Assembly: GCA_965214115.1 (NCBI GenBank)
Contig: CBDCAU010000008.1
Location: forward strand, 156,347 to 220,346
Direction: 5' to 3'
DNA length: 64,000 nucleotides
Origin: Owenweeksia sp.
Lineage (GTDB): Bacteria; Bacteroidota; Bacteroidia; Flavobacteriales; Schleiferiaceae
Part shown: positions 38,015 through 57,716 of the stretch, piece by piece
Numbering within the stretch: position 1 is the stretch's first letter
How the letters are laid out: every line of letters begins with the position of its first letter
Translations under genes and position numbers: made by a program
The notes under the pieces: model-generated
The model's database searches: none
The model's input: the letters and a program-made list of their open reading frames with translations, nothing else
What the model was told of the DNA's origin: nothing

Positions 38015-38101
38015 CTATAATTTCAAACACACATTCTTCTTCTCCGTAAAAAAATCCAGCGCCTCGAAACCGCCCTCGCGTCCCACGCCGCTGTTTTTCA
38101 T
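38015..38101 (-). pseudogene. Orphan duplicate of the ALDH gene 3' end
   Basis: 38022-38101 matches 38788-38867 at 77/80 nt; encodes MKNSGVGREGGFEALDFFTEKKNVCLKL*. Confidence 0.9.
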
Positions 38102-38139
38102 CTCAATGAAACCAACGATTAATAATGAGATTTTGAATT

Positions 38140-38493
38140 TCAATACGACTGGTTTCTCAAATTTTCCCCATCGTAAACGTAAAGCCTCCGAGCAGGATTT
38201 ATTTTTTCCACCGAAATCAAGTGTTCCACCAATTCACCAGCGTACTTGATTTGCTCAGCCTCAAGACGCAAAAAGATGACGCCCGCTTCGGGATAGAGAC
38301 CTTTCTGAAAAATCAAGCGTCCAAAATCGCTGTCAAAAGTGACGATGACGCGGTTCTCCAAATTGGAAATCGCAATGATGTTTTCATCCTTGATACTGGG
38401 GTGCGCCCGACCCACGGCTTTCACATCGTGGCCTTTTTCGATGAGATAATCTATCATCTTATTCGATAGATTTTCGTCCGCCAAGAGCCTCAT
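38140..38493 (-). CDS. DUF5615 family PIN-like protein (putative toxin)
   Basis: MRLLADENL, VIVTFDSDFG, GVIFLR. Confidence 0.88.
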   Translation of the reverse strand: MRLLADENLSNKMIDYLIEKGHDVKAVGRAHPSIKDENIIAISNLENRVIVTFDSDFGRLIFQKGLYPEAGVIFLRLEAEQIKYAGELVEHLISVEKINPARRLYVYDGENLRNQSY

Positions 38494-38732
38494 CCCGAAA
38501 CCTTTTGCGGGAAGGGCAGGTAGAGCGATTCCTGCAATTCTTCACTGACGTATTGAAAAATGGCCTGCAAATGCTCTTTGCGCAGCCTCGGATAATTCTC
38601 CAAAAGTTCTGCCTCGCTCCAGCCGCCCGCCATCAGTTTCACCAAAAACTCTATCGAAAGCCGCGTGCCTTTGATGGCGGGCTTGCCCATCAGCACTTCG
38701 GGGTCAGATACGATGTGGTTTCTCCAGTCCAT
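38490..38732 (-). CDS. DUF433 family protein (putative antitoxin)
   Basis: IVSDPEVLMGKPAIKGTRLSIE...ELLENYPRL. Confidence 0.9.
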   Translation of the reverse strand: MDWRNHIVSDPEVLMGKPAIKGTRLSIEFLVKLMAGGWSEAELLENYPRLRKEHLQAIFQYVSEELQESLYLPFPQKVSG

Positions 38733-38780
38733 TTTTTTGAGAATTGAAAAGCGAATTTCGGAAATTTTGAGGAGAACCTT

Positions 38781-40223
38781 TCAAACCTTCAAACACACAT
38801 TCTTCTTCTCCGTAAAAAAATTCAGCGCCTCGAAACCGCCCTCACGGCCCACGCCGCTGTTTTTCATTCCGCCAAAAGGCGTGCGCAAATCCCTGACCAG
38901 CCAGCAATTGAGCCACACAATTCCGGCATCCAACTTTGCCGTCACGCGGTGCGCGCGGTTCAAGTTTTCCGTGAAAACGGTGGCCGCCAAACCGTACTGC
39001 GTGGAGTTGGCCATTTTCAAAACTTCGGCCTCCGTTTCAAAAGGCGTGAGCGTCACCACCGGCCCGAAAATCTCTTCCTGGTTGGTGCGGCATTGGTAAT
39101 CCAAACCTTCGATTACCGTGGGTTCCAAATAAAAACCGTCGGCAAATTCGCCGTCCATTGTCAGGCGATTTCCGCCGTGCAGAACCGTCCCGCCTTCTTC
39201 TTTCGCCAGTTCGATGTAGCGCATCACTTTTTCCAAATGCGCTTCCGAAACCAGCGCGCCCATTTTGGAATTTTCGTCGGTGGGCGGCCCTACTTTCAAA
39301 GTTTTCACTCGTTCCAAATAGGCGTTTTTAAATTTTTCATAAATGCTTTTTTCAATAAAAAGACGGCTGCCGCAAAGGCAGATCTGTCCTTGGTTGGCAA
39401 AGCTGGCGGTGACGGAAGTTTTCACGGCGAGGTCAAAATCACAATCCGCAAAAATCAAATTGGGGTTTTTGCCACCCAGTTCCAGCGACAGTTTTTTGAA
39501 CATCGGGGCGGCGGTGCGCGCGAGATGTTCGCCCGTTTTCGTGCCGCCGGTAAAACTGATGGCTTTTATTTTGGGATGTTCCACGATGGCCTGCCCCACC
39601 TCCGGCCCCGTGCCGTGGAGGATGTTCAGAACGCCAGTGGGCATTCCGGCTTCTTGGCAGATTTCCGAAAGTAGGAAAGCAGTCATTGGCGTCACTTCGC
39701 TGGGTTTGGCAATCACGCAATTTCCCGCCGCCAGTGCTGGCGCAATTTTCCAAGTGAACAGATACAGCGGCAAATTCCACGGCGAAATGCAGCCCACCAC
39801 CCCAATCGGCTGGCGCAAAGTGTAATTGAAACCCTCGCCGCCCATTTGGTGGAAGTGGCTGTCTTCGTGCAAGATAGCCGTGGCAAAAAAGGCAAAATTG
39901 TCCCGCGCGCGGGGGATGTCCACGGCGGTGGCGAGCTTTACGGGCTTGCCGTTGTCGAGGCTTTCGGCTTGCGCCAATTTGTCCAAATTTTCATCAATTA
40001 AATTGGAAACCCGCAGCATAATTTCCGAGCGCTCCCTGGCGGAAAAACCGCTCCATTTTGGGAATGCCGCAGTTGCAGCATCCACCGCTTTTTGCACGTC
40101 TTTTTCGTCGGATTTCGGGATGAGCGAATACACTTTTCCCCGCGAGGGGTCGATGTTTTCCAGCCATTCGCCGGAAGCGGGTTCGTGCCATTCGCCGTTG
40201 ATGTAATTGAGGATTTTTTTCAT
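38781..40223 (-). CDS. Aldehyde dehydrogenase, probably 2-aminomuconate/2-hydroxymuconate semialdehyde dehydrogenase
   Basis: ISPWNLPLYL, ELGGKNP, NQGQICLCGSR, EEIFGPV, WLVRDLRTPFGGMK. Confidence 0.88.
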   Translation of the reverse strand: MKKILNYINGEWHEPASGEWLENIDPSRGKVYSLIPKSDEKDVQKAVDAATAAFPKWSGFSARERSEIMLRVSNLIDENLDKLAQAESLDNGKPVKLATAVDIPRARDNFAFFATAILHEDSHFHQMGGEGFNYTLRQPIGVVGCISPWNLPLYLFTWKIAPALAAGNCVIAKPSEVTPMTAFLLSEICQEAGMPTGVLNILHGTGPEVGQAIVEHPKIKAISFTGGTKTGEHLARTAAPMFKKLSLELGGKNPNLIFADCDFDLAVKTSVTASFANQGQICLCGSRLFIEKSIYEKFKNAYLERVKTLKVGPPTDENSKMGALVSEAHLEKVMRYIELAKEEGGTVLHGGNRLTMDGEFADGFYLEPTVIEGLDYQCRTNQEEIFGPVVTLTPFETEAEVLKMANSTQYGLAATVFTENLNRAHRVTAKLDAGIVWLNCWLVRDLRTPFGGMKNSGVGREGGFEALNFFTEKKNVCLKV

Positions 40224-40326
40224 TGGAATAAACGCAAGATGTTAGACACAAGACGCAAGTTTGGAGGGTCGGCATGATTGGCATGGAGTCATTGGCCCAT
40301 TGTCCCATTGACTAATTGTCTCATTA

Positions 40327-41115
40327 TTAAAGATTCCCCAGCCTTCCCCCATCCACCGGCAGATTAATCCCATTAATGTACCCCGCCGCCGGACTGCACA
40401 AAAACGCAATCGCATTGGCAATTTCTTCCGGCTTCGCAAAGCGCTTCAGCGGCACTTCCGCCGTCATTTTTTTCTCCACCGCTTTTTCAGGCGTCCCCGT
40501 TTTTTTCGCCTTGTTTTCGATGATGGAACTGAGCCGCCCCGTCTCCGTCGCGCCCGGCAGCACGTTGTTCACGGTGATGCCGAATTCGCCCAGTTCATTG
40601 GACAAAGTCTTGCTCCAATTGGCCACCGCGCCACGAATCGTGTTGCTCACGCCGAGGTTGGGCAGCGGTGCTTTCACGCTGGTGCTGATTACGTTTACGA
40701 TGCGGCCGTACTTTGATTTTTGCATCCCCGGCAATAACAGTTTTACCAATAATTGATTGCACAACAAATGCTGCCGAAACGCATCCACAAATTCTTCCAA
40801 ATCTGCTTTATGCGCCGGGCCAGCAGGTGGGCCGCCCGTATTATTAATTAGAATATTAAAATCGTTGCCATTATTCAGACAACCCGAAACCACACTCTCC
40901 AATGAAACAGGATCATTAAAATCCGCCACCAAAAATTGGTGTTTTTGATTATGGCTGGTGCTGAGGTTTTTCTGCACTTTTTCCAGCTTTTCCGCATTCC
41001 GCGCCAGCAAGGTAATTTCCGCGCCCATCCGCGCCAGTTCTTCGGCGGCGGCCTTTCCGATGCCGTCAGAACTTCCGCATACGAGGGCTTTTTTATTGGT
41101 GAGATTTAAGTCCAT
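40327..41115 (-). CDS. SDR family oxidoreductase
   Basis: CGSSDGIG, NNTGGPP, SNTIR, NNVLPG, VDGG. Confidence 0.9.
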   Translation of the reverse strand: MDLNLTNKKALVCGSSDGIGKAAAEELARMGAEITLLARNAEKLEKVQKNLSTSHNQKHQFLVADFNDPVSLESVVSGCLNNGNDFNILINNTGGPPAGPAHKADLEEFVDAFRQHLLCNQLLVKLLLPGMQKSKYGRIVNVISTSVKAPLPNLGVSNTIRGAVANWSKTLSNELGEFGITVNNVLPGATETGRLSSIIENKAKKTGTPEKAVEKKMTAEVPLKRFAKPEEIANAIAFLCSPAAGYINGINLPVDGGRLGNL

Positions 41116-41195: not shown

Positions 41196-41352
41196 CCTCC
41201 CCCGGCTCGTGCCTCGCCACCCCCTCAAAGAGGGGGATAGGGGCCGCCACCCCGAACCACGGAACGACTAAACTGGCGGTCTTCCAAAAAGTTGGAGCGT
41301 GCGCTGTCCCCCTCTTTGAGGGGGTGTCTCGGCTCAGCCGAGACGGGGGAGG
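41196..41352. repeat. REP doublet / MITE-like element (CCTCCCCCGG...CCCCTCAAAGAGGGGG family)
   Basis: Terminal inverted repeats flanked by degenerate octamer tracts. Confidence 0.75.
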
Positions 41353-41422
41353 TTTTCACTATTCCCCTAATTAACTAATTGTCCGATTGTCTCATTGGCA
41401 AATTGCCTAATTGTCCCATTGA

Positions 41423-42130
41423 CTAATTGTCCAATTGCCCCATTGTCTCATTCATTTTATCACTCTCCACCATCCCGTCCCGCAGCCGGATCACCCGCTT
41501 GGCGTGCAGCGCGATTTCCTCTTCGTGCGTCACCAAAATCACCGTGTTGCCGTTGCGATGGATTTCTTCAAACAAATTCATTATTTCGATGGAGGTTTTG
41601 CTATCCAAATTCCCCGTTGGTTCATCCGCCAAAATGATGGAGGGATTGTTCACCAGCGCCCGCGCCACGGCCACGCGCTGCCTTTGCCCGCCGCTGAGTT
41701 GGTTCGGCCGATGGTCCATCCGGTCGCCCAGCCCCACGGATTCCAAAACTTCCTCCGCGCGTTTTTTCCGAGCGGAACTGGACATCCCCGCGTAAACCAA
41801 AGGCAGCGTAACATTCTCCAAAGCGGTGCTGCGCGGCAATAAATTAAAAGTTTGGAAGACAAACCCAATCTCGCGGTTGCGGATTTCAGCCAGCTCATTG
41901 TCAGACAGTTGGCTTACGTCCTGTTCGTTCAGAATATACTCGCCGGAAGTGGGCGTGTCCAGACAGCCAATCAAATTCATCAAGGTAGATTTCCCGCTCC
42001 CGCTCGGCCCCATCAAAGCGACGTACTCGTTCCGCTTGATGTCCAAGTCAATGCTTTTCAGCACTTTAACGACTTGATTTCCAAGGGGAAAATTGCGGAT
42101 GATTTGGCGGAGACGGATGATTTCGTTCAT
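41423..42130 (-). CDS. ABC transporter ATP-binding protein (LolD/MacB-like)
   Basis: [27 protein letters not shown]. Confidence 0.95.
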
Positions 42131-42245
42131 TTTTTTTCAATGTGCTAATCAGTCAATCGGACAGTTAGTCAATGAATAGGAGTGGGTAAAATTAGGAGAT
42201 AGAAATCGAACATCTTGTTAAAGATTTTAGCCGATTGTTTAGCAA

Positions 42246-42410
42246 ATTGTCCCATTGTCCCATTGTCCCATTGTCCCATTGTCCCATTGTCCCATTGTCC
42301 CATTGTCCCATTGTCCCATTGTCCCATTGTCCCATTGTCCCATTGTCCCATTGTCCCATTGTCCCATTGTCCCATTGTCCCATTGTCCCATTGTCCCATT
42401 GTCCCATTGT
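42246..42410. repeat. Octamer microsatellite (ATTGTCCC)x20
   Basis: Perfect tandem copies at 42246-42405 plus a partial unit; degenerate relatives at about 40291-40325 and 41369-41453. Confidence 0.95.
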
Positions 42411-50441: not shown

Positions 50442-50467
50442 CCGCCCTTTTGCAAAAAGCAAAAAAT

Positions 50468-53400
50468 ATGGCGCGCAACTATCCCGAATTCAAGCAATTA
50501 GACCTTGTGAAAATCCACAACGACATTCTGGATTTTTGGAAGGAAAACGACATTTTTGAGCAAAGCGTTTCCTCCCGCGAGGGGCGCGAAAACTTCGTGT
50601 TTTACGAAGGGCCGCCCTCGGCCAACGGGATGCCGGGCATCCACCACGTGATGGGCCGCGCCATCAAGGATATTTTTTGCCGCTACAAAACATTGGACGG
50701 TTTTCAAGTCCATCGAAAAGCGGGTTGGGACACCCACGGACTGCCCGTGGAGCTTGGCGTGGAGAAGGAATTGGGTATAACAAAAGAGGACATCGGCAGC
50801 AAAATTTCTGTAAAAGAATACAACGAGGTCTGCAAAAAAGCGGTGATGAAATACACCGACGCGTGGAACGACCTGACCGAGAAAATGGGCTATTGGGTGG
50901 ATATGGGCGACCCCTATATCACCTACAAACCCAAGTATATGGAAACGGTGTGGTGGCTTCTCAAACAACTGTGGGACAAGGACTTAATGTATAAAGGCTA
51001 TACAATTCAACCGTATTCGCCGGCCGCCGGCACGGGGCTGAGTTCCCACGAAATCAATATGCCGGGCTGCTACCGCGAGGTGAAGGATACATCAGTAATT
51101 GCGCAGTTTCCGGTGGTGCGGAATGAGAAATTTCAAAAGGTTTTTGGCGAAGCGGTTTCGGTGGAGGATGCGGTGTATTTCCTCGCTTGGACGACCACGC
51201 CTTGGACGTTGCCCAGCAACACCGCGCTGACGGTGGGGAAAAGTATTCCCTATGTTTTAGTGGAAACTTTCAATCAATATACCCATCAAAAACAGAAGGT
51301 AGTTTTAGCCAAAAATTTAGTAGCTAAATATTTCAAAAAAGAGGCGAAAAATGTTTCTTTTTCTGATTATAGAAAGGATGGAAAAAATATTCCTTGGAAG
51401 ATTGTTTGGGAAGGTTTGGGCGAGCGGCTTTTAGATTTGAAATATGAGCAACTTTTGCCGTATGCAAAACCTTACGAAAATCCCGACCAAGCGTTTCGGG
51501 TGATTGCTGGCGATTTTGTGACGACAGAAGACGGAACTGGCATTGTCCACACTGCGCCTACGTTTGGTGCGGATGACGCGAAAGTGGCGAAAGAAAATGG
51601 CGTGCCGCCGATGTTGGTTTTGGATGAAAATGGCAACGCCGTCCCGCTGGTGGATTTGCAGGGGAAATTCCGAAAGGAAATGGGTGAATTCGCTGGAAAA
51701 TTCGTGAAAAACGAATATTATTTGGAAAGCGAAAAACCGGATAAATCAGTTGATGTAGAAATCGCCATTAAATTAAAAGAAGAAAACAAAGCTTTTTTAG
51801 TCGAAAAATACAGCCACAGCTATCCCCATTGTTGGCGCACGGACAAGCCCGTATTATATTATCCGCTGGACAGTTGGTTTGTGAAAGTGACCGCCGAGCG
51901 CGAAAAGCTGGTGGCGCTGAACAAAACCATCAATTGGAAACCCGCCGCCACGGGCGAAAAACGCTTTGGCAACTGGCTGGAAAACGCCAACGACTGGAAC
52001 CTTAGCCGCAGCCGTTCTTGGGGAATCCCGCTGCCGATTTGGAGTACCGAAGACGGCACGGAACGGCAAATCTTTGGCAGCGTGGCCGAGTTGAAAAGAG
52101 CCTGCGACGACGCCGTAGAAGCGGGTTTGATGGATTCCCATCCTTTTGAAAAATTCGAGTTGGACAATCTTTCCGATGAGAATTACGACACCGTGGATTT
52201 GCACCGTCACATTGTAGATGACATCATCCTAAAATCCCCGCAAGGGAAACCGATGAAACGGGAGGCGGATTTGATTGATGTGTGGTTTGATTCGGGGAGT
52301 ATGCCGTATGCGCAGTGGCATTATCCGTTTAGCCCCCTATCCCCCAAAGGGGGGAAATTGGAGCGTGAAAGCGCGCATAATAAAACGTCCAATTCTAACG
52401 TCCGTGTAGCTGAACCCCCCTTTGGGGGGCAGGGGGGCTGGCAAGATTTAGCGAGTGTTTTCCCCGCCAACTTCATCGCCGAAGGCGTGGACCAAACCCG
52501 CGGCTGGTTCTACACGCTCCACACCATCGCTGGATTGGTTTTCGATTCGGTGGCGTATAAGAATGTGATTTCCAACGGATTGGTGCTAGACAAAAACGGC
52601 CAGAAAATGTCGAAGCGCCTCAAAAATGCGGCTGACCCATTTGAGACTTTGGACAAATACGGCGCGGACGCGGTGCGCTGGTATATGATTGCGAATGCGC
52701 AGCCGTGGGACAATCTGAAATTTGATTTCGCGGGCATCGCCGAGGTGCAGCGCAAATTTTTTGGGACGCTATATAATACGTATTCGTTTTTTGCGCTGTA
52801 CGCGAATATCGATAGGTTTGAGTGGGATTCGGCGCGGCTTTCGGAGGTGAAAAACCGGCCGGAAATCGACCGCTGGATTTTGTCGCGGCTGCAAGTTTTG
52901 AAAAAAACGGTGCGCGAAAATTTCGACAATTACGAACCGACTTGGGCGGCGCGCGCCATCCAAAATTTTGTGGATGAGGAGCTAAGTAACTGGTATGTAA
53001 GGCTTTGCCGGAAACGGTTTTGGCGCGGCGAAATGAGCGCCGACAAACGGATGGCCTACGAAACGCTTTACGAATGCCTGTTCACGGTGAGCCAATTGAT
53101 GAGTCCGGTGGCGCCGTTTTTCGCGGATTGGCTGTACCGAAACCTGACGGAACATCTGCCGGAAGGCGAAAAAGAAAGCTCGGTGCATCTGACTTTTTTG
53201 GCGCAAGCCCAAGAAAACCAAATCGATACACATCTGAACGAGCGGATGAAAATGGCGCAGCGGCTCAGTTCGATGGTGCTGTCGTTGCGGCGGAGCGAGT
53301 CCATAAAAGTGCGGCAGCCGCTGCAAAAAATGATGGTGCCGGCGCTGAAACCGGAGGTGGCCGAACTGATAAAAAGCATCGAGGACATCGTGCTGGCGGA

Positions 53401-53971
53401 GGTGAACGTGAAAGAACTGGAAATTTTGCGCGACGTGCAGGGCGTGCTGGTGAAAAAGGCGAAACCGGATTTCAAAAAACTGGGCCCGAAATACGGCAAG
53501 TTGATGAAGCCAATCGCGGGCGCGGTGAAAAATTTTGACCAAGACCAAATCGAAAAACTGGAAGAAAAAGGCGTTTTGGATTTGGAAATCGGCGGGGAGA
53601 AAATCGCGCTGGCGCTGGGCGACGTGGACATCGAAACGGAGGACATCCAAGGTTGGCTGGTGGCCACGGAGGGCGGGCTGACGGTGGCTTTGGACGTCAC
53701 GATTTCGGACGAACTGCGCTACGAGGGCATCGCCCGCGAGCTGGTGAACCGCATCCAAAACCTGCGCAAAGACAGTGGGCTGGAAGTGACCGACCGCATT
53801 TCGCTGCAGATTTTGAAAAACGACGAAATCAGCAAGGCGCTGGCGCAAAACCGCGACTACATTGCCAGTGAAACCTTGGCGAACGAAGTGATTGAAAAAG
53901 AGGAAATGATTGGTGGGTTGGAGTTGGATTTAGGGGAAGTGCAGACGGCAATTGCGTTGGAGAAAGTTTAG
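50468..53971 (+). CDS. ileS: Isoleucine--tRNA ligase, carrying an in-frame palindrome insertion
   Basis: EGPPSANG.PGIHH, GWDTHGLP, WTTTPWT, DWNLSRSR.WG, DVWFDSG, EGVDQTRGWF, KMSKR. Confidence 0.97.
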   Translation: MARNYPEFKQLDLVKIHNDILDFWKENDIFEQSVSSREGRENFVFYEGPPSANGMPGIHHVMGRAIKDIFCRYKTLDGFQVHRKAGWDTHGLPVELGVEKELGITKEDIGSKISVKEYNEVCKKAVMKYTDAWNDLTEKMGYWVDMGDPYITYKPKYMETVWWLLKQLWDKDLMYKGYTIQPYSPAAGTGLSSHEINMPGCYREVKDTSVIAQFPVVRNEKFQKVFGEAVSVEDAVYFLAWTTTPWTLPSNTALTVGKSIPYVLVETFNQYTHQKQKVVLAKNLVAKYFKKEAKNVSFSDYRKDGKNIPWKIVWEGLGERLLDLKYEQLLPYAKPYENPDQAFRVIAGDFVTTEDGTGIVHTAPTFGADDAKVAKENGVPPMLVLDENGNAVPLVDLQGKFRKEMGEFAGKFVKNEYYLESEKPDKSVDVEIAIKLKEENKAFLVEKYSHSYPHCWRTDKPVLYYPLDSWFVKVTAEREKLVALNKTINWKPAATGEKRFGNWLENANDWNLSRSRSWGIPLPIWSTEDGTERQIFGSVAELKRACDDAVEAGLMDSHPFEKFELDNLSDENYDTVDLHRHIVDDIILKSPQGKPMKREADLIDVWFDSGSMPYAQWHYPFSPLSPKGGKLERESAHNKTSNSNVRVAEPPFGGQGGWQDLASVFPANFIAEGVDQTRGWFYTLHTIAGLVFDSVAYKNVISNGLVLDKNGQKMSKRLKNAADPFETLDKYGADAVRWYMIANAQPWDNLKFDFAGIAEVQRKFFGTLYNTYSFFALYANIDRFEWDSARLSEVKNRPEIDRWILSRLQVLKKTVRENFDNYEPTWAARAIQNFVDEELSNWYVRLCRKRFWRGEMSADKRMAYETLYECLFTVSQLMSPVAPFFADWLYRNLTEHLPEGEKESSVHLTFLAQAQENQIDTHLNERMKMAQRLSSMVLSLRRSESIKVRQPLQKMMVPALKPEVAELIKSIEDIVLAEVNVKELEILRDVQGVLVKKAKPDFKKLGPKYGKLMKPIAGAVKNFDQDQIEKLEEKGVLDLEIGGEKIALALGDVDIETEDIQGWLVATEGGLTVALDVTISDELRYEGIARELVNRIQNLRKDSGLEVTDRISLQILKNDEISKALAQNRDYIASETLANEVIEKEEMIGGLELDLGEVQTAIALEKV
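52331..52439. repeat. REP-doublet insertion inside ileS
   Basis: AGCCCCCTATCCCCCAAAGGGGGG ... CCCCCCTTTGGGGGGCAGGGGGGCT imperfect terminal inverted repeats. Confidence 0.85.
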
Positions 53972-54000
53972 GAAATTATTGAAAATAAAATCTCAATCTG

Positions 54001-54669
54001 ATGAACTCGAAAAAAATCATAAAAAGAATATCCGAGCACATAGCTTTGGAAGGTTTCAAACCAGCCGTAGTTAATTATCTTTTAATGCTCGCGCGAGTCA
54101 CCGAAAATAGAAGGGATGAAATTGTTTTTCCTACAACCAAACGGACGATGGCCAGCAATTTGGTAGCCAGAATTCAATTCCCTGCTGTTGAAGAAATATA
54201 TAAATCAGCGGTTAATAAGAATGATGGAAACTATGTATCGAGTACTCTTCTAAAACAAGTCGATGCCGATTCATTTGTCAATACGTATGAGATAATTTAT
54301 ACTGAGGATGTAGATAAAGACATTCCCTATTTTAAAGAAGCAATTGATAACGGTGCCATTCCATTTTTCAACAAATACCAATCGGTTGAAGCGGTTTACG
54401 GTGAGATGAAAAATATAAATAAATCGAACTACTTAGATTATATGCAAGGATTACACAAGTTTATTGGACATCCGGTTATCGTAAGATATTTAATCATACT
54501 TGGATTGATGGGCGATGATGATTTTTATAAAGAATCCGACAGGCAGTTGAAGTTTATAGAAGAGCATGAATCTTCTAATGCTGAAATTGACTTGCAGACT
54601 CGAAATGTCAACAAAATCTTACCCACGGTAATTCAGATGACCAAAGAAAAATTTGGCTCATTGAAATGA
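54001..54669 (+). CDS. Low-GC hypothetical protein
   Basis: 222-aa ORF with AT-rich codon usage; no family recognised with confidence. Confidence 0.7.
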   Translation: MNSKKIIKRISEHIALEGFKPAVVNYLLMLARVTENRRDEIVFPTTKRTMASNLVARIQFPAVEEIYKSAVNKNDGNYVSSTLLKQVDADSFVNTYEIIYTEDVDKDIPYFKEAIDNGAIPFFNKYQSVEAVYGEMKNINKSNYLDYMQGLHKFIGHPVIVRYLIILGLMGDDDFYKESDRQLKFIEEHESSNAEIDLQTRNVNKILPTVIQMTKEKFGSLK

Positions 54670-54872
54670 AAAAAGAATGGCGTTAGAGGTGGGTTCGGCT
54701 AAAGCCAAAACTCGGTGACCGAATTGAAACAACCGCACTAAAGCGGCGGTTCAATATCACCTCATTTCAGAAAGATTTCCTTAAAATATCGAATTTTCTA
54801 TATTTGGTCGCTTTTTGAGCAAATTTGTAAGAATACTCACTCTACCCAAATATTTGAAACCCTCTCGTCGGC

Positions 54873-54971
54873 GAAACCTTGGCGGATGAAGTGTTTGAAA
54901 AAGAGGAAGTTGGCGGCGGTTTGGAACTGGATTTTGATGCGGTAAAAGTGGCGATGGCGTGTGGAAAAGTG
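54873..54971 (+). pseudogene. Orphan diverged copy of the ileS 3' end
   Basis: ETLADEVFEKEEVGGGLELDFDAVKVAMACGKV aligns without gaps to ETLANEVIEKEEMIGGLELDLGEVQTAIALEKV (21/33 aa). Confidence 0.85.
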
Positions 54972-55097
54972 TGTGCATTTTGCCATTTAAATTAAGGTCT
55001 CCGTAAATGTTGCAGCGCCCCATTTTTTGCGTTTTGGCCAAAAACTAAAATCCATTTTAAAGATTGATTTTTTTACAATGGAAAACAAAAAATTGAA

Positions 55098-55790
55098 ATG
55101 ATAGTAAAAACAGTAGCCAATTCTACCGAAGCCGTGCGCGGCCTAAAAGACGGGATGACGCTGATGCTGGGCGGTTTCGGGCTGTGCGGCATCCCTGAAA
55201 ATTCCATCGCCGCCATCCGCGAAAACGGCGCGAAAAACCTAACCTGCATCAGCAACAACGCGGGCGTGGACGATTTTGGGTTGGGACTGCTGTTGCAGAC
55301 GCGGCAAATCAAAAAGATGATTTCCAGCTACGTGGGCGAAAATGCGCTGTTTGAAAAACAGATGCTGAGCGGCGAGCTGGAGGTGGATTTGGTGCCGCAA
55401 GGTTCGCTGGCCGAACGGTGTCGCGCGGCGGGAGCGGGCATCCCCGCGTTTTACACGCCCGCCGGCTACGGAACCGAAGTGGCGCACGGCAAGGAAGTTC
55501 GCTGGTTCAAAGGGAAACCGCACATTTTGGAACACGCTTTTGAAGCGGATTTTGCTTTCGTAAAAGCGTGGAAAGGCGACGATGCGGGCAATTTGATTTT
55601 CAAGGGCACGGCGCGGAATTTCAACCCCTTGATGGCGATGGCGGGGAAAATCACCGTGGCGGAAGTAGAGGAACTGGTGCCGGCGGGCGAGCTGGATCCG
55701 AACTTTATCCATACGCCGGGGATTTTTGTGCAGAGGATTTTTAAGGGGAAGAATTATGAAAAGAGGATTGAGCAGCGGACGACTCGGTAG
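55098..55790 (+). CDS. scoA: 3-oxoacid CoA-transferase subunit A
   Basis: [44 protein letters not shown]. Confidence 0.93.
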
Positions 55791-55832
55791 TCTTGAAATT
55801 TGCCACAAAGACTCAAAGGCGCTATTAGTTTT

Positions 55833-55840
55833 TACCTTTG
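55833..55840 (+). promoter_or_regulatory. -7 promoter box upstream of the TA array (TACCTTTG)
   Basis: Exact TAnnTTTG match 17 nt before ATG 55858. Confidence 0.65.
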
Positions 55841-55857
55841 GAAAAAAACCTACGCCA

Positions 55858-56166
55858 ATGCCTAAAATCTATGAATATCTTGGGATTTCGATTTTCTTCT
55901 TCTCCAATGAGCACGAGCCGATTCATGTGCACGGGCTGTACGGCGAATTTGAAAGCAAGGCGGAAATTTTCTGGATTGAAAAAAACGTTTTGAAAGTAGA
56001 AATTATAGAAATCTCAGGTAAAAGATCATTGAAAGGAAAAACTCTAAAAAACTTTGAGATATTCATTAATGAATATGCAGTAGAGATTATGGAAAAATGG
56101 AATCTGTATTTTAAGCAAGGAATTACTAAATTGACATTTGAAAGGATCACTAAAAAAATTCGATGA
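55858..56166 (+). CDS. DUF4160 family putative toxin, copy 1
   Basis: MPKIYEYLGISIFFFSNEHEPIHVH motif. Confidence 0.85.
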   Translation: MPKIYEYLGISIFFFSNEHEPIHVHGLYGEFESKAEIFWIEKNVLKVEIIEISGKRSLKGKTLKNFEIFINEYAVEIMEKWNLYFKQGITKLTFERITKKIR

Positions 56167-56507
56167 TGAAGGTAATTGTAGAAGTAAAATACGATGAAAA
56201 AACAGTAGATGACAACCGTAAAATCTATTCAGTTATCGATGCTCGCTACATCGGCGATTTTGCTATCCGTGTTTTCTTTTCCGATGGTCATCAAAAATTG
56301 GTGGATTTCAAGCCTTTTTTGGAGCAGGTTAAGCAGCCTCTTGCAATGCAATATTTAGAGGAAGAAAAGTTCAAAGAGTTTGAGATTGTCCACGGCAATT
56401 TGAACTGGAACGATTATGAGATGATTTTTCCCTTGGATGATTTATACAATAATTCTATCCTGAAGGAAACAAAGACAAAGGAGCGCGAAGTTTTAGAAAA
56501 TGCCTAA
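56163..56507 (+). CDS. DUF2442 family putative antitoxin, copy 1
   Basis: IRVFFSDG....VDF...L, LNWNDYEMIFPLDDLY. Confidence 0.85.
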   Translation: MMKVIVEVKYDEKTVDDNRKIYSVIDARYIGDFAIRVFFSDGHQKLVDFKPFLEQVKQPLAMQYLEEEKFKEFEIVHGNLNWNDYEMIFPLDDLYNNSILKETKTKEREVLENA

Positions 56508-56802
56508 AATTTATGAATATCTTGGGATTTCGATTTTCTTCTTTTCCCGTGAACACGAACCTATCCACGTTCACGCACGCTACGGAGAATTTCAAAGCAG
56601 GGCGGAATTTATTATCGCGGATGGCAAAGTGGTCGATATTCGAATTATTGGTGTTAAAGGTTCAGACCCTTTGGTAGGAAAAGTCTTGAAAAACTTTGAA
56701 GATTTCTTAGAAGTTTTTGCTGATGAAATGATACAAAAGTGGGTTGATTATTTTGTTTATGGCAAGAAGTTAAAGTTGAAAAGAATCACTAAAAAGCTTT
56801 GA
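56500..56802 (+). CDS. DUF4160 family putative toxin, copy 2
   Basis: MPKIYEYLGISIFFFSREHEPIHVH motif. Confidence 0.85.
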   Translation: MPKIYEYLGISIFFFSREHEPIHVHARYGEFQSRAEFIIADGKVVDIRIIGVKGSDPLVGKVLKNFEDFLEVFADEMIQKWVDYFVYGKKLKLKRITKKL

Positions 56803-56805
56803 AAA

Positions 56806-57135
56806 ATGAAGATAACCGTTGATTACAGCAATTTGAAAAAAGATAACCAAGTATATTCTGTAACCGATGCCAAGTACATCGGCGATTTTGCTATCCGTGT
56901 TTTCTTTTCCGATGGTCATCAAAAATTGGTGGATTTCAAGCCTTTTTTGGAACAGGTTACCCATCCCAGCGCCAAGCAATATTTTAATGAAGAAAAGTTT
57001 AAGGAATTTGAGATTGTGGATGGCATTTTGAATTGGAATGATTACGAAATGATTTTTCCCTTGGATGATTTATATAATAATACTATTCTGAAAGAAACGA
57101 AAACCAAGGAGCGCGAAGTTTTGGAAAATGCCTGA
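56806..57135 (+). CDS. DUF2442 family putative antitoxin, copy 2
   Basis: Same motifs as copy 1; 77-bp identical block (56247-56323 and 56875-56951). Confidence 0.85.
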   Translation: MKITVDYSNLKKDNQVYSVTDAKYIGDFAIRVFFSDGHQKLVDFKPFLEQVTHPSAKQYFNEEKFKEFEIVDGILNWNDYEMIFPLDDLYNNTILKETKTKEREVLENA

Positions 57136-57166
57136 AATTTCCAACTTTTAAAACAGAAAAACCTAA

Positions 57167-57706
57167 ATGACCAAAAGAGATTTTTTTATTTCACTTCTTA
57201 AAGTTTTTGGATTGTTTTCGGCGATAGCGGCGCTATTTTCTTCTCTGCCCTCCTACCTTTCTTTTGCCATTGCCAGTTTTGATTGGATTTCTCTCTTTTG
57301 GGTTTCGGTGGCTTCCATAGTGGTGATTGGGCTTTTTTTGCTTCTTATTTTTAAGTCAGAAAATATTGTAAGTATTTTAAAATTGGACAGCGGATTCGAT
57401 ACCGACCATATTGATTTTGGAAATTTGAAGGCGGTTGATTTAATCAAAATCGGGACTTTTGTGGTGGGAGGTTTTTTGATTTTAGATAATATCCCCACTT
57501 TTTTAGGTCACACTTTGTATGCTTTTAAAGGAGAGCAAATGGGCTTGGAATCTACTCCTCGTGATAATCTGATGTGGACGATGAGTGGGCTGAATCTCAT
57601 CATCGGATACATTTTGATTACCAACTACCATTTTGTGGCGGCCCGTTTTTACAAACACGAAAAGGGAGAAACGACCACTTCAACGAATCACGATTTAACG
57701 AGTTAA
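57167..57706 (+). CDS. Hypothetical multi-pass membrane protein
   Basis: Four hydrophobic segments. Confidence 0.7.
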
Positions 57707-57716
57707 CAAATCACGA

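What the first reader, a model, noticed from the sequence alone, without database searches (positions are those of the whole stretch)
53870..54971. Second gene-end replacement event, in the essential gene ileS
Seen: 1003 bp downstream of the matching ileS position, an intergenic segment encodes a gap-free 33-codon homologue of the IleRS C-terminus (21/33 aa identical). Between the two copies is one low-GC orphan gene (54001-54669). The architecture matches the ALDH case but is more decayed. Inference: core-gene 3' ends act as recurrent recombination anchors for sub-kilobase cargo, recalling orphan C-terminus accretion in polymorphic toxin loci but operating on housekeeping genes.
Basis: partly seen in the sequence, partly recalled or inferred. 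Interest (0 to 1): 0.7.

Follow-up and report, generated by a model that had tools for sequence, protein, structure and literature searches.

The report
Displaced ileS gene-end left by imported DNA
A leftover copy of the last 33 codons of the essential isoleucyl-tRNA synthetase gene sits 1 kb downstream of the working gene end, most likely because about 0.9-2.4 kb of DNA from a related strain was spliced in on one side only; this kind of event is already described for other selfish genes, so it is a good example and not a new principle.

Summary
Bases 54873-54971 are a gap-free homologue of the last 33 ileS codons (53870-53968): 21/33 aa, 71/102 nt, offset 1003. The next best 33-mer in the window scores 12/33.

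The relic and the working end are two diverged alleles (dN/dS about 0.19), not a duplicate that decayed.

The DNA between them has two parts:
- An orphan gene. In other contigs, its roughly 215-aa family always follows a conserved upstream gene end, like an immunity gene after a toxin.
- About 170 nt that in all relatives is the promoter and 5'UTR of the dksA-like gene, which normally follows ileS. This stretch is cut off just before the ATG and joined to the relic.

Best reading: a piece of another haplotype (ileS 3' part, immunity-like gene, dksA leader) entered by homologous recombination in ileS. Its other end joined illegitimately about 102-111 nt before the resident stop codon.

The sister ALDH case carries a DUF433/DUF5615 toxin-antitoxin-like pair. 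It is a true presence/absence polymorphism: a related metagenome holds both the empty and the filled site.

No integrase lies within the window. The closest known kinds are insertion with long target duplication (RM systems) and homology-facilitated illegitimate recombination. I file it as a new member of a known kind, of moderate interest.

The parts
50450..53971 (+). ileS (isoleucyl-tRNA synthetase, 1173 aa), intact and functional-looking
   Evidence: ORF. It is 70-75% aa identical to IleRS of Owenweeksia/Schleiferiaceae MAGs.
52460..53869 (+). 3' third of ileS, with unusually high identity to strains in metagenome X2. This is the candidate homologous (anchor) part of the imported tract.
   Evidence: X2 contigs of at least 95% identity cluster at 52462-53775 (97.0, 98.4 and 96.4%). 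At 50606-52004 the listed (longest) contigs are 89.7-91.8% identical and none reaches the 95% cut-off. Suggestive, not decisive.
53870..53971 (+). Working ileS 3' end (copy 1): last 33 codons plus the TAG stop. It is the allele linked to the cargo.
   Evidence: GC is 45%, against 50.5% for the gene body and the relic. It carries a derived 'DLG' where the family has an invariant 'DFD'.
53972..54001 (+). 29-nt spacer reading EIIENKISI* in frame after the ileS stop. Tentatively a vestige of the C-terminus of the orphan gene's usual upstream partner.
   Evidence: Partner genes in L057, L059 and L060 end ...GEVISDMKKI*...GDAISNIIKL*...GDVISGIDKY*, 2-6 nt before the family member. The resemblance covers only ~10 aa and is not statistically tested.
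54001..54669 (+). Orphan gene, 222 aa, 34.5% GC; immunity-like by context, function unknown
   Evidence: No Pfam hit. Only itself turns up among 5.8 billion proteins by word search. An exhaustive HMMER search finds 11 weak relatives, 10 of them 213-238 aa and one a 551-aa protein matched over only ~50 residues, sharing a PFFxxYQTVEQVY motif. The AF2 model is confident (pLDDT 89.7) but has no PDB fold match. In 4 of 4 other contigs it directly follows a conserved upstream ORF end.
54693..54860 (+). Fragment of the upstream region of the dksA/traR-like gene: a 63-nt hairpin-rich element (54693-54756), a Bacteroidetes -7 box TATATTTG (54799-54806), and the 5'UTR, cut about 3 nt before the ATG
   Evidence: The promoter motif lies just after the ileS stop (within about 30 nt) in the 13 related loci with a blastn match, and is followed by the dksA-like gene and lspA. 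X2 contigs match 54707-54850 at 93-95% and then continue '...TTTGAAACAATGGCAGATACGAAAGAA' where the window diverges. No dksA or lspA is in the window.
54861..54872 (+). Junction: 12 nt (CCTCTCGTCGGC) of uncertain origin between the dksA leader and the relic
   Evidence: There is a weak possible ileS homology (LVG against IAS). GAAACC occurs on both sides of the junction (54856-61 and 54873-78).
54873..54974 (+). Relic: displaced ileS 3' end, 33 codons. The former stop is now TGT, and the frame runs on to TAA at 54993-54995.
   Evidence: It keeps the ancestral DFD..K but has non-conservative changes at four near-invariant positions in the last 8 residues.
54975..55097 (+). Sequence downstream of the relic, up to scoA. 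Its first ~50 nt loosely resemble what follows the ileS stop in X2 strains.
   Evidence: By-eye comparison of the 30-nt loose ends. Weak: no X2 contig reaches 80% identity here.
55098..55790 (+). scoA-like CoA transferase subunit A, the first gene after the relic
   Evidence: Pfam CoA_trans, E = 1e-75.
38781..40223 (-). ALDH gene of the sister event. Its last 28 codons are the repeat copy at 38784-38867.
38102..38780 (-). Cargo of the ALDH event: a DUF433 protein (38490-38732) and a DUF5615/PIN-like protein (38140-38493), a toxin-antitoxin-like pair
   Evidence: Pfam hits at E = 5e-19 and 4e-21. An X2 contig carries the same left junction at 91% identity.
38015..38101 (-). ALDH 3'-end relic (28 codons plus stop), followed by the native downstream sequence
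   Evidence: It differs from copy 1 at 3 of 80 nt, plus the last two codons. X2 holds an empty-site allele in which ALDH coding sequence runs straight into this downstream sequence.

Best explanation
**Proposed event.** The relic is the resident 3' end of ileS, displaced when a linear piece of DNA from a related strain was integrated one-sidedly. The donor had the arrangement usual for this family (ileS, then the promoter and leader of a dksA-like gene, then dksA and lspA), plus a small orphan immunity-like gene lodged right after the ileS stop. The recipient had ileS followed by a short spacer and scoA.

**How the two ends joined.**
- The left end of the incoming DNA recombined homologously inside ileS, probably just 3' of the 130-nt palindromic element at 52330-52459.
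- The right end had no homology. It stopped in the dksA leader at ~54860 and was joined illegitimately to the recipient about 102-111 nt before the recipient's own ileS stop.

**Result.** ileS now ends in the donor allele. It is followed by the immunity-like gene and a promoter that has lost its gene. The recipient's last 33 codons survive as a non-functional relic that has begun to decay (stop lost, conserved residues changed).

**The ALDH locus** shows the same architecture, with a toxin-antitoxin-like pair as cargo.

**Shown directly:** the homology, the sharp boundaries, the composition of the insert, the broken synteny, the allelic pattern of divergence, and the empty and filled ALDH sites.

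**Inferred:** the direction of transfer, the position of the left crossover, and the mode of joining.
For: - **The relic is real.** Significance is far above chance.
- **The two copies are alleles.** dN/dS between them is 0.24/1.28. Each has private derived states, and both share a lineage-specific EV.EKEE..GGLELD motif absent from all other IleRS retrieved. X2 strains carry several ileS-end alleles, some sharing relic states.
- **The insert comes from an ileS-linked haplotype.** It contains 168 nt of the dksA upstream region. In all relatives checked, dksA and lspA directly follow ileS. In X2 that upstream region leads straight into a dksA-type start codon.
- **Direction of transfer.** dksA and lspA are absent from the window. 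A recipient with the standard arrangement would have lost them, which favours the direction proposed.
- **A tract shared with X2.** Contigs of at least 95% identity cluster at 52462-53775. At 50606-52004 the listed (longest) contigs are 89.7-91.8% identical and none reaches the 95% cut-off, and such contigs are nearly absent from the flanking genes. The dksA leader is 93-95% identical to X2, while the relic is only ~84% and scoA 81-90%.
- **The relic is decaying.** Its stop is lost, and it has T>V, I>M, L>C and E>G at near-invariant positions.
- **No dedicated recombinase.** No integrase or transposase was found in the ORFs scanned, and there are no terminal inverted repeats around the insert.
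- **The ALDH event is an insertion polymorphism.** Empty and filled alleles coexist in X2.
- **The mechanism class is documented.** See PMC5361080 for HFIR displacement that leaves shifted 3' ends and orphan immunity genes, and PMC2853133 for long-target-duplication insertion of RM genes without mobility genes, some of which overlap gene 3' ends.
Against: - No donor or recipient genome was recovered, so the direction of transfer and the left crossover are inferred from short metagenome unitigs of mixed strains.
- The identity map may partly reflect which strains assembled.
- The first 36 nt of the repeat are much more alike (33/36) than the rest (38/66). Plain HFIR does not predict this. It fits better with a crossover or a recognition core at that spot.
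- Two events whose illegitimate joins both fall within the last ~100 nt of a gene is somewhat coincidental, although joins further downstream would leave no relic and so go unseen.
- Natural competence is not established for this lineage.
- The 12-nt junction filler is unexplained.
Confidence: 0.55

Rival explanations
1. A small cassette integrated by recombination at the gene end. A circular molecule carrying [ileS-end mimic + cargo] would insert by a single crossover in the near-identical first 36 nt. The crossover would be made either by a site-specific recombinase acting in trans (as phage 21/e14 integrate into icd and supply a replacement 3' end) or by RecA (Campbell-type). The direct repeats would allow later excision and re-use.
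For: - Homology starts abruptly, with a 12-nt identical run and 33/36 identity before falling to 38/66.
- The ALDH repeat likewise starts sharply at its ATG, with 20 identical nt.
- Both cargos are compact one- or two-gene selfish modules.
- Empty and filled ALDH sites coexist in one community.
Against: - No integrase or transposase was found in the window ORFs scanned.
- No ileS relic occurs in 56 related ileS loci.
- The two events share no common motif at their junctions.
- The cargo includes a truncated piece of the neighbouring dksA leader. That looks like an arbitrary fragment end, not an element terminus.
Confidence: 0.2
2. A larger rearrangement. The left side (ileS, cargo, dksA leader) would be native. 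The right side (relic, spacer, scoA and onward) would have been brought in or translocated, with the relic as a passenger fragment or templated filler at the breakpoint.
For: - The left side keeps the ancestral ileS-dksA-leader linkage.
- Synteny with all relatives ends exactly at the junction.
- scoA is less similar to X2 than the ileS 3' part is.
Against: - It would separate or delete dksA and lspA from a genome that had them only here.
- The right side has normal core-genome GC (52-62%) and ordinary housekeeping content.
- It does not explain the ALDH event, where an empty site shows a simple insertion.
Confidence: 0.1
3. In-situ tandem duplication of the ileS end (for example by slippage or sister-chromatid exchange), followed by neutral decay of the downstream copy.
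For: - It is the simplest way to obtain a direct repeat.
- The ALDH repeats are 96% identical to each other but only ~88% identical to X2 alleles.
- The relic shows some decay.
Against: - dN/dS of 0.19 with dS near saturation is not what a neutrally decaying copy gives.
- The working copy itself carries derived states at invariant family positions.
- The non-functional dksA leader in the same insert is still 93-95% identical to X2. The event is therefore much younger than 30% divergence would imply.
- The sequence after the relic is not a second copy of the insert.
Confidence: 0.1
4. Assembly artefact: two co-occurring strains' ileS ends joined into one contig.
For: - The source is a metagenome with low coverage (about 4x).
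- Related strains with different ileS ends exist in X2, a different metagenome.
Against: - A single 3393-nt Logan contig crosses both repeat copies and the junction without a branch or a mismatch.
- The junction joins two sequences that share no k-mer, so a de Bruijn assembler cannot create it without reads that span it.
- The two repeat copies share no identical run longer than 14 nt.
Confidence: 0.03

Closest known systems
Insertion with long target duplication (ILTD) of restriction-modification gene complexes (Nobusato et al. 2000, cited in Furuta et al. 2010; Furuta et al. 2010, PMC2853133)
   Same: - A small block of selfish or defence-type genes lies between direct repeats of tens to hundreds of bp.
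- The repeats correspond to a single copy in the empty-site genome.
- The insert carries no integrase or transposase.
- Some reported repeats overlap the 3' end of a gene.

The ALDH event meets all of these.
   Different: - The cargo here is a toxin-antitoxin-like pair and an immunity-like gene, not RM genes.
- The host is a Flavobacteriales lineage.
- In the ileS event the repeats are only 70% identical and behave as two alleles.
- The ileS insert also contains DNA natively linked to ileS, so 'target duplication' does not describe it literally.
Homology-facilitated illegitimate recombination (de Vries & Wackernagel 2002; Prudhomme et al. 2002), as proposed for displacement of T6SS effector-immunity modules and Rhs C-termini (Kirchberger et al. 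2017, PMC5361080)
   Same: - There is a one-sided homologous anchor in a conserved gene and a non-homologous far end joined illegitimately.
- The incoming module supplies a new gene end.
- The old 3' end is shifted downstream and kept as an orphan.
- Orphan immunity genes accumulate.
   Different: - The anchor gene is an essential housekeeping gene, not a toxin gene with a constant 5' part.
- The event was not observed experimentally.
- Microhomology at the join cannot be read without the parental sequences.
- Competence of the host is unknown.
Integrative elements that insert into the 3' end of a protein-coding gene and carry a replacement end (phage 21 and e14 in E. coli icd). This is recalled from my own knowledge and was not checked in the paper library.
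   Same: - The working gene ends in an element-borne allele.
- The displaced native end remains as a pseudogene fragment on the far side.
- Identity is highest at the 5' edge of the repeat.
   Different: - Those elements are 15-40 kb and encode their own integrase next to the attachment site.
- Here the insert is 0.9 kb, with no recombinase within the window and no recurrence of the site in relatives.

Membership tests
Insertion with long target duplication (ILTD) | Direct repeats longer than 30 bp flank the insert | tested here: met
   ileS: 98-102 nt at 70% identity. ALDH: 80-87 nt at 96% identity.
Insertion with long target duplication (ILTD) | The repeats align to a single copy in a related genome that lacks the insert (empty site) | tested here: inconclusive
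   ALDH: met. An X2 contig runs from ALDH coding sequence through the stop into the relic's downstream sequence. ileS: X2 strains have a single ileS end and no orphan gene, but what follows could be read for only 30 nt.
Insertion with long target duplication (ILTD) | No integrase, transposase or other mobile-element genes in or next to the insert | tested here: met
   Pfam scans of the insert and of 30 further window ORFs found none.
Insertion with long target duplication (ILTD) | The inserted DNA is foreign to the locus | tested here: not met
   For ileS, 168 nt of the insert is the dksA leader, which is natively linked to ileS in all relatives. For ALDH this was not contradicted.
Homology-facilitated illegitimate recombination product | A donor-derived tract is continuous from a homologous anchor into the heterologous insert | tested here: inconclusive
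   X2 contigs of at least 95% identity cluster at 52462-53775, and the dksA leader is 93-95% identical to X2. Flanks are 81-92%. The data are a mix of strains and short unitigs only.
Homology-facilitated illegitimate recombination product | Illegitimate join at a short microhomology at the non-homologous end | not testable with these tools
   The junction is narrowed to 54861-54872, and GAAACC occurs on both sides.
Site-specific integrative element with a replacement gene end (phage 21/e14-icd type) | Element-encoded tyrosine or serine recombinase adjacent to the attachment site | tested here: not met
   No recombinase was found in the window ORFs scanned.
Site-specific integrative element with a replacement gene end (phage 21/e14-icd type) | The same attachment point is used recurrently in other genomes | tested here: not met
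   No ileS-end relic was found downstream of ileS in 56 related loci. Two metagenome scans were empty.
Polymorphic-toxin C-terminal displacement (Rhs/CDI/T6SS orphan modules) | The displaced gene is a toxin with a constant N-terminal part and a variable C-terminal toxin domain, followed by its immunity gene | tested here: not met
   The displaced end belongs to IleRS, a housekeeping enzyme. Only the cargo resembles an orphan immunity module.
Diversity-generating retroelement (variable repeat at a gene 3' end, template repeat downstream) | Differences are confined to adenines of the template repeat, and a reverse transcriptase lies nearby | tested here: not met
   The 31 differences are of 9 kinds. 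Only 6 (relic) or 11 (copy 1) involve A. No RT was found in the window ORFs scanned.

The most novel reading that the evidence does not exclude
In this lineage, small selfish modules (toxin-antitoxin pairs, orphan immunity genes) might travel as recombinase-free cassettes. Each would carry a copy of a housekeeping gene's last ~30 codons as a portable attachment site. The cassettes would integrate by a crossover in that segment, restore the essential gene with their own allele, and could pop out again as circles through the flanking repeats. This would be a RecA-driven counterpart of integron cassettes that uses core-gene ends as docking sites. The coincidence with a homing-type DUF559 element inside the same ileS gene could mean that breaks in ileS stimulate such capture.
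Probability: 0.12. Interest if true: 0.7.

Novelty: new member of a known kind. Interest (0 to 1): 0.4.

Why it matters
- **An essential gene can be a mosaic.** The 3' end of an essential aminoacyl-tRNA synthetase gene can be swapped for a foreign allele as a by-product of acquiring a 0.7-kb accessory gene. Core-gene phylogenies and recombination scans can therefore be affected right up to the stop codon.
- **Relics as dated scars.** The leftover gene ends can be searched for genome-wide to count one-sided recombination events. Such events are otherwise invisible.
- **A wider range of cargo and hosts.** The cargos here (a toxin-antitoxin-like pair and a probable orphan immunity gene) extend the 'insertion with long target duplication' pattern from restriction-modification systems to other addiction or defence modules, and to Bacteroidota.
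- **A possible regulatory side effect.** A strong housekeeping promoter (that of the dksA-like gene) was carried along. It now points into the relic and scoAB, so gene-end insertions may rewire the expression of downstream genes.

Tried and rejected
**Searches that found nothing useful**
- Exact-protein look-up of the orphan gene: not on record.
- Word-based search of 5.8 billion proteins with the orphan: only itself.
- Word-based search with an alignment of the two C-terminal variants: no candidates, a wasted search.
- Metagenome scans: peptide patterns ISLQILKN and DEISKALA gave no true relative; the promoter DNA pattern gave 0 hits.
- Pfam on the putative toxin partners and neighbouring ORFs: nothing.
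- Head scan for 5'-end relics in the window: only tandem paralogues.
- The third low-GC island (55790-57716, between scoA and scoB): no relic found.
- Shared junction motifs between the ileS and ALDH events: only chance-level matches.

**Readings considered and rejected**
- Known RNA family in the insert: Rfam gave only sub-threshold noise.
- tRNA-like attachment site: the cloverleaf-looking 54686-54763 is not called by ARAGORN, and its fold z-score is only -1.9.
- LAGLIDADG homing endonuclease for the orphan: a weak PDB sequence hit (E = 0.0035 over 15 residues) was not borne out by the confident AF2 model, which has no PDB match at E < 0.001.
- DGR.

**A limit of the tools**
- Walking along the X2 contigs was impossible, because only 30 nt of each loose end are shown.
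Full report
**1.

ileS is the 1173-aa ORF at 50450-53971 on the + strand. Its last 33 codons (53870-53968) and the stretch at 54873-54971 align without gaps at an offset of 1003 nt, with 21/33 aa and 71/102 nt identical.

- A tblastn of the last 45 residues against the 4 kb downstream gives E = 2.4e-10.
- In a gap-free scan of all six frames of the window, the next best 33-mer has 12 identities. No codon shuffle of the relic out of 100,000 exceeds 12.
- The homology begins abruptly. The 60 nt upstream of the two copies are unrelated.
- The relic has no stop where ileS ends. It reads TGT and runs on for six more codons, whereas a related allele in metagenome X2 has TGA at that place.
- Between the copies lies a 222-aa ORF (54001-54669) in a 34.5% GC stretch, against 50.5% for ileS.
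- A Logan contig of 3393 nt from run X1 covers 52507-55899 without a single difference or branch. The two repeat copies share no identical run longer than 14 nt, and the junction joins unrelated sequences. An assembler could not have invented the join.

**2. The organism and the normal neighbourhood**

- The closest IleRS sequences (70-75% aa identity) are from Owenweeksia, Schleiferiaceae and 'Cryomorphaceae' MAGs.
- In most of the relatives examined (13 loci by blastn) the ileS stop is followed within about 30 nt by a conserved Bacteroidetes-type promoter (…TTTTCTATATTTGGC…). About 65 nt later comes a dksA/traR-type zinc-finger gene, and then lspA. In L002 and L011 the spacer is longer (~145 nt) and has a different promoter-like motif, but the same two genes follow.
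- In the window, that promoter and its leader sit at 54786-54860, between the orphan gene and the relic.
- dksA and lspA are nowhere in the 64 kb.
- Contigs of a different metagenome, X2, hold close relatives at 90-98% nt identity. They match 54707-54850 at 93-95% and then continue '…TTTGAAAC AATGGCAGATACGAAAGAA', a dksA-type start. The window instead has CCTCTCGTCGGC followed by the relic.
- The insert therefore contains more than the orphan gene. It is a contiguous piece of an ileS-downstream haplotype, cut about 3 nt before the dksA ATG and joined to position -102 (or -111) of another ileS end.

**3. The two ileS ends are alleles, not a duplicate and its wreck**

- Differences fall 7/7/17 on codon positions 1/2/3. 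dN is 0.24 and dS is 1.28, a ratio of 0.19.
- Both copies share a motif (EV.EKEE..GGLELD) that no other retrieved IleRS has. They therefore come from one narrow lineage.
- Each copy also has private derived states. The working copy has DLG..Q where the family has an invariant DFD and usually K. The relic has V, M, C and G at four near-invariant positions among its last eight residues, and has lost its stop.
- X2 contains at least three ileS-end alleles, and some share states with the relic.
- The stranded dksA leader is useless here, yet it is still 93-95% identical to X2. The joining event is therefore much younger than the 30% divergence between the copies.
- Most of that divergence thus predates the event. 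Only the tail of the relic shows decay.
- One unexplained detail: the first 36 nt of the repeat are far more alike (33/36) than the rest (38/66).

**4. The cargo**

- The orphan ORF has no Pfam hit and no close relative among 5.8 billion proteins.
- An exhaustive HMMER search finds 11 distant relatives, 10 of them 213-238 aa and one a 551-aa protein matched over only ~50 residues, with a shared PFFxxYQTVEQVY motif.
- AlphaFold2 with this alignment gives a confident α/β-plus-helical model (pLDDT 89.7, pTM 0.87) that matches nothing in the PDB at E < 0.001. It is a real protein of unknown fold class.
- In all four other contigs retrieved, a family member starts 2-12 nt after an ORF ending in a conserved tail (…NNKWIKIFDSETGEVISDMKKI*, …NNKWIKIYDTEKGDAISNIIKL*, …YDSEDGDVISGIDKY*, …AWVKVGDTGTGSVYGE…*). 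In one of them only a 50-codon stump of that partner remains.
- This is the layout of a toxin-immunity pair and its orphan derivatives. It is an inference from context, because Pfam gave nothing for the partners.
- In the window, the 29 nt between the ileS stop and the orphan ATG read EIIENKISI* in frame. This may be the last trace of such a partner, but the resemblance is too short to test.

**5. The sister event**

- ALDH (38781-40223, - strand) is followed by 48 nt, a DUF433 gene, a DUF5615/PIN-like gene (Pfam E = 5e-19 and 4e-21), 38 nt, and then an 84-nt copy of the ALDH end. That copy differs from the working end at 3 of 80 nt plus the last two codons.
- X2 holds both states. One contig carries the ALDH end joined to the DUF433 gene at 91% identity. 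Another runs from ALDH coding sequence (…ACGCCCTTTGGCGGA) through the intact end LKV* straight into the sequence that follows the relic in the window.
- This is therefore a genuine insertion polymorphism with a long direct repeat and no mobility gene.
- Two such events lie in 64 kb here. None of 56 related ileS loci, 13 kb each, has an ileS relic, and among the Bacteroidota loci the scan gave only one gene-end repeat of any kind (L009, 19 aa immediately after the gene end).

**6. Mechanism**

No integrase, transposase or reverse transcriptase was found in the window ORFs scanned. The differences are not adenine-specific, so this is not a DGR. There are no inverted terminal repeats around the insert.

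The best fit is a one-sided recombination with these parents:
- a donor with the family-standard ileS-dksA arrangement plus the immunity-like gene;
- a recipient in which ileS was followed by a short spacer and scoA.

Recombination was homologous on the left, and the right end was joined illegitimately inside the recipient's own ileS end.

Support for a left-hand homologous tract:
- X2 contigs of at least 95% identity cluster at 52462-53775 (97.0, 98.4 and 96.4%).
- At 50606-52004 the listed (longest) contigs are 89.7-91.8% identical and none reaches the 95% cut-off.
- Such contigs are almost absent from the genes on either side.
- The left edge of this tract coincides with a 130-nt palindromic element at 52330-52459, which X2 lacks. 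That heterology would stop heteroduplex extension.

The opposite direction of transfer would have deleted dksA-lspA from a genome that had them only here.

This reading is an inference from short, mixed-strain unitigs, and I give it 0.55.

The main rival (0.2) is a cassette that integrates by a crossover in the near-identical first 36 nt, either site-specifically in trans or by RecA. It explains the identity gradient better. It does not explain the lack of any recombinase, the lack of recurrence, or the arbitrary-looking truncated dksA leader.

The remaining rivals are:
- in-situ duplication with decay (0.1);
- a larger rearrangement with the relic as passenger (0.1);
- an assembly artefact (0.03).

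**7. Comparison with what is known**

- Direct repeats of 46-420 bp flanking restriction-modification genes, with no other mobility genes and sometimes overlapping a gene's 3' end, were described as 'insertion with long target duplication' in several, mostly competent, bacteria (PMC2853133). The ALDH event meets every criterion I could test. The ileS event fails one: part of its insert is native to the locus.
- Homology-facilitated illegitimate recombination, with the old 3' end and old immunity genes pushed downstream, has been proposed for T6SS effector-immunity arrays and Rhs loci (PMC5361080).
- What is new here is the setting, not the principle. The anchors are housekeeping genes, one of them essential. 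The cargos are a toxin-antitoxin-like pair and a probable orphan immunity gene. The host is a Flavobacteriales lineage. A population sample shows the empty and filled states side by side.

**8. Verdict**

The relic is real and highly significant. The event belongs to a known class, so interest is moderate (0.4).

The most novel reading not excluded is recombinase-free cassettes that use core-gene ends as portable docking sites. I give it about 0.12.

Noticed in passing
window 52330-52459 (inside ileS); also L007, L009, L011: A 130-nt palindromic element (arms CCCCCTATCCCCCAAAGGGGGG / CCCCCCTTTGGGGGGCAGGGGG) is inserted in frame in ileS between the WFDSG and KMSKS motifs. It adds ...SPLSPKGG...PPFGGQGG... 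to the protein. X2 relatives lack it and have 28 nt there instead. At the same site, IleRS of three relatives carries an in-frame DUF559 (Vsr/REase-like) endonuclease domain flanked by the same PLSPxGG / PFGGxGA-type repeats. The window copy therefore looks like a miniature derivative of an endonuclease-bearing element that lives in frame inside an essential gene, reminiscent of Rickettsia palindromic elements. It could be a homing-type element.
   Followed up: partly
window 41222-41322: A second palindrome pair of the same type (CCCTCAAAGAGGGG on both strands, 87 nt apart) lies in an intergenic region. This suggests a small family of these elements in the genome.
   Followed up: no
window 55790-57716: A 1.9-kb low-GC island splits the scoA-scoB CoA-transferase pair. 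It holds two tandem DUF4160/DUF2442 gene pairs (84-86% nt identical to each other) and a 179-aa membrane-like ORF. No gene-end relic was found. X2 has matches of at least 95% identity within this island (56127-56427 and 56729-57000, which overlap the DUF2442 ORFs), so these modules appear to move between strains.
   Followed up: partly
window 54786-55098: The stranded dksA-type promoter (TATATTTG at 54799-54806) now points through the relic towards scoA, with no predicted terminator on the + strand in between. It may drive scoAB, or a small peptide from the relic ORF (54879-54995).
   Followed up: no
window 40287-40381, 41359-41560, 42235-42400: Stretches that translate as repeats of LSHCPIVP / LTNCPIV recur at three places around an ABC-transporter gene. 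They are probably a dispersed or tandem nucleotide repeat.
   Followed up: no
window 54693-54756; X1/X3 contig of 1170 nt: A 63-nt hairpin-rich element upstream of the dksA promoter is conserved (about 81%) in another organism of the source sample and in X2. It matches no Rfam family, and its fold z-score is only -1.9.
   Followed up: partly
L059 2529-5773: A relative of the orphan gene lies in what looks like an immunity-gene island. In order: a 408-aa protein with two internal repeats, a free-standing DUF559 endonuclease gene, a 50-codon stump of the partner gene, and then the family member.
   Followed up: partly
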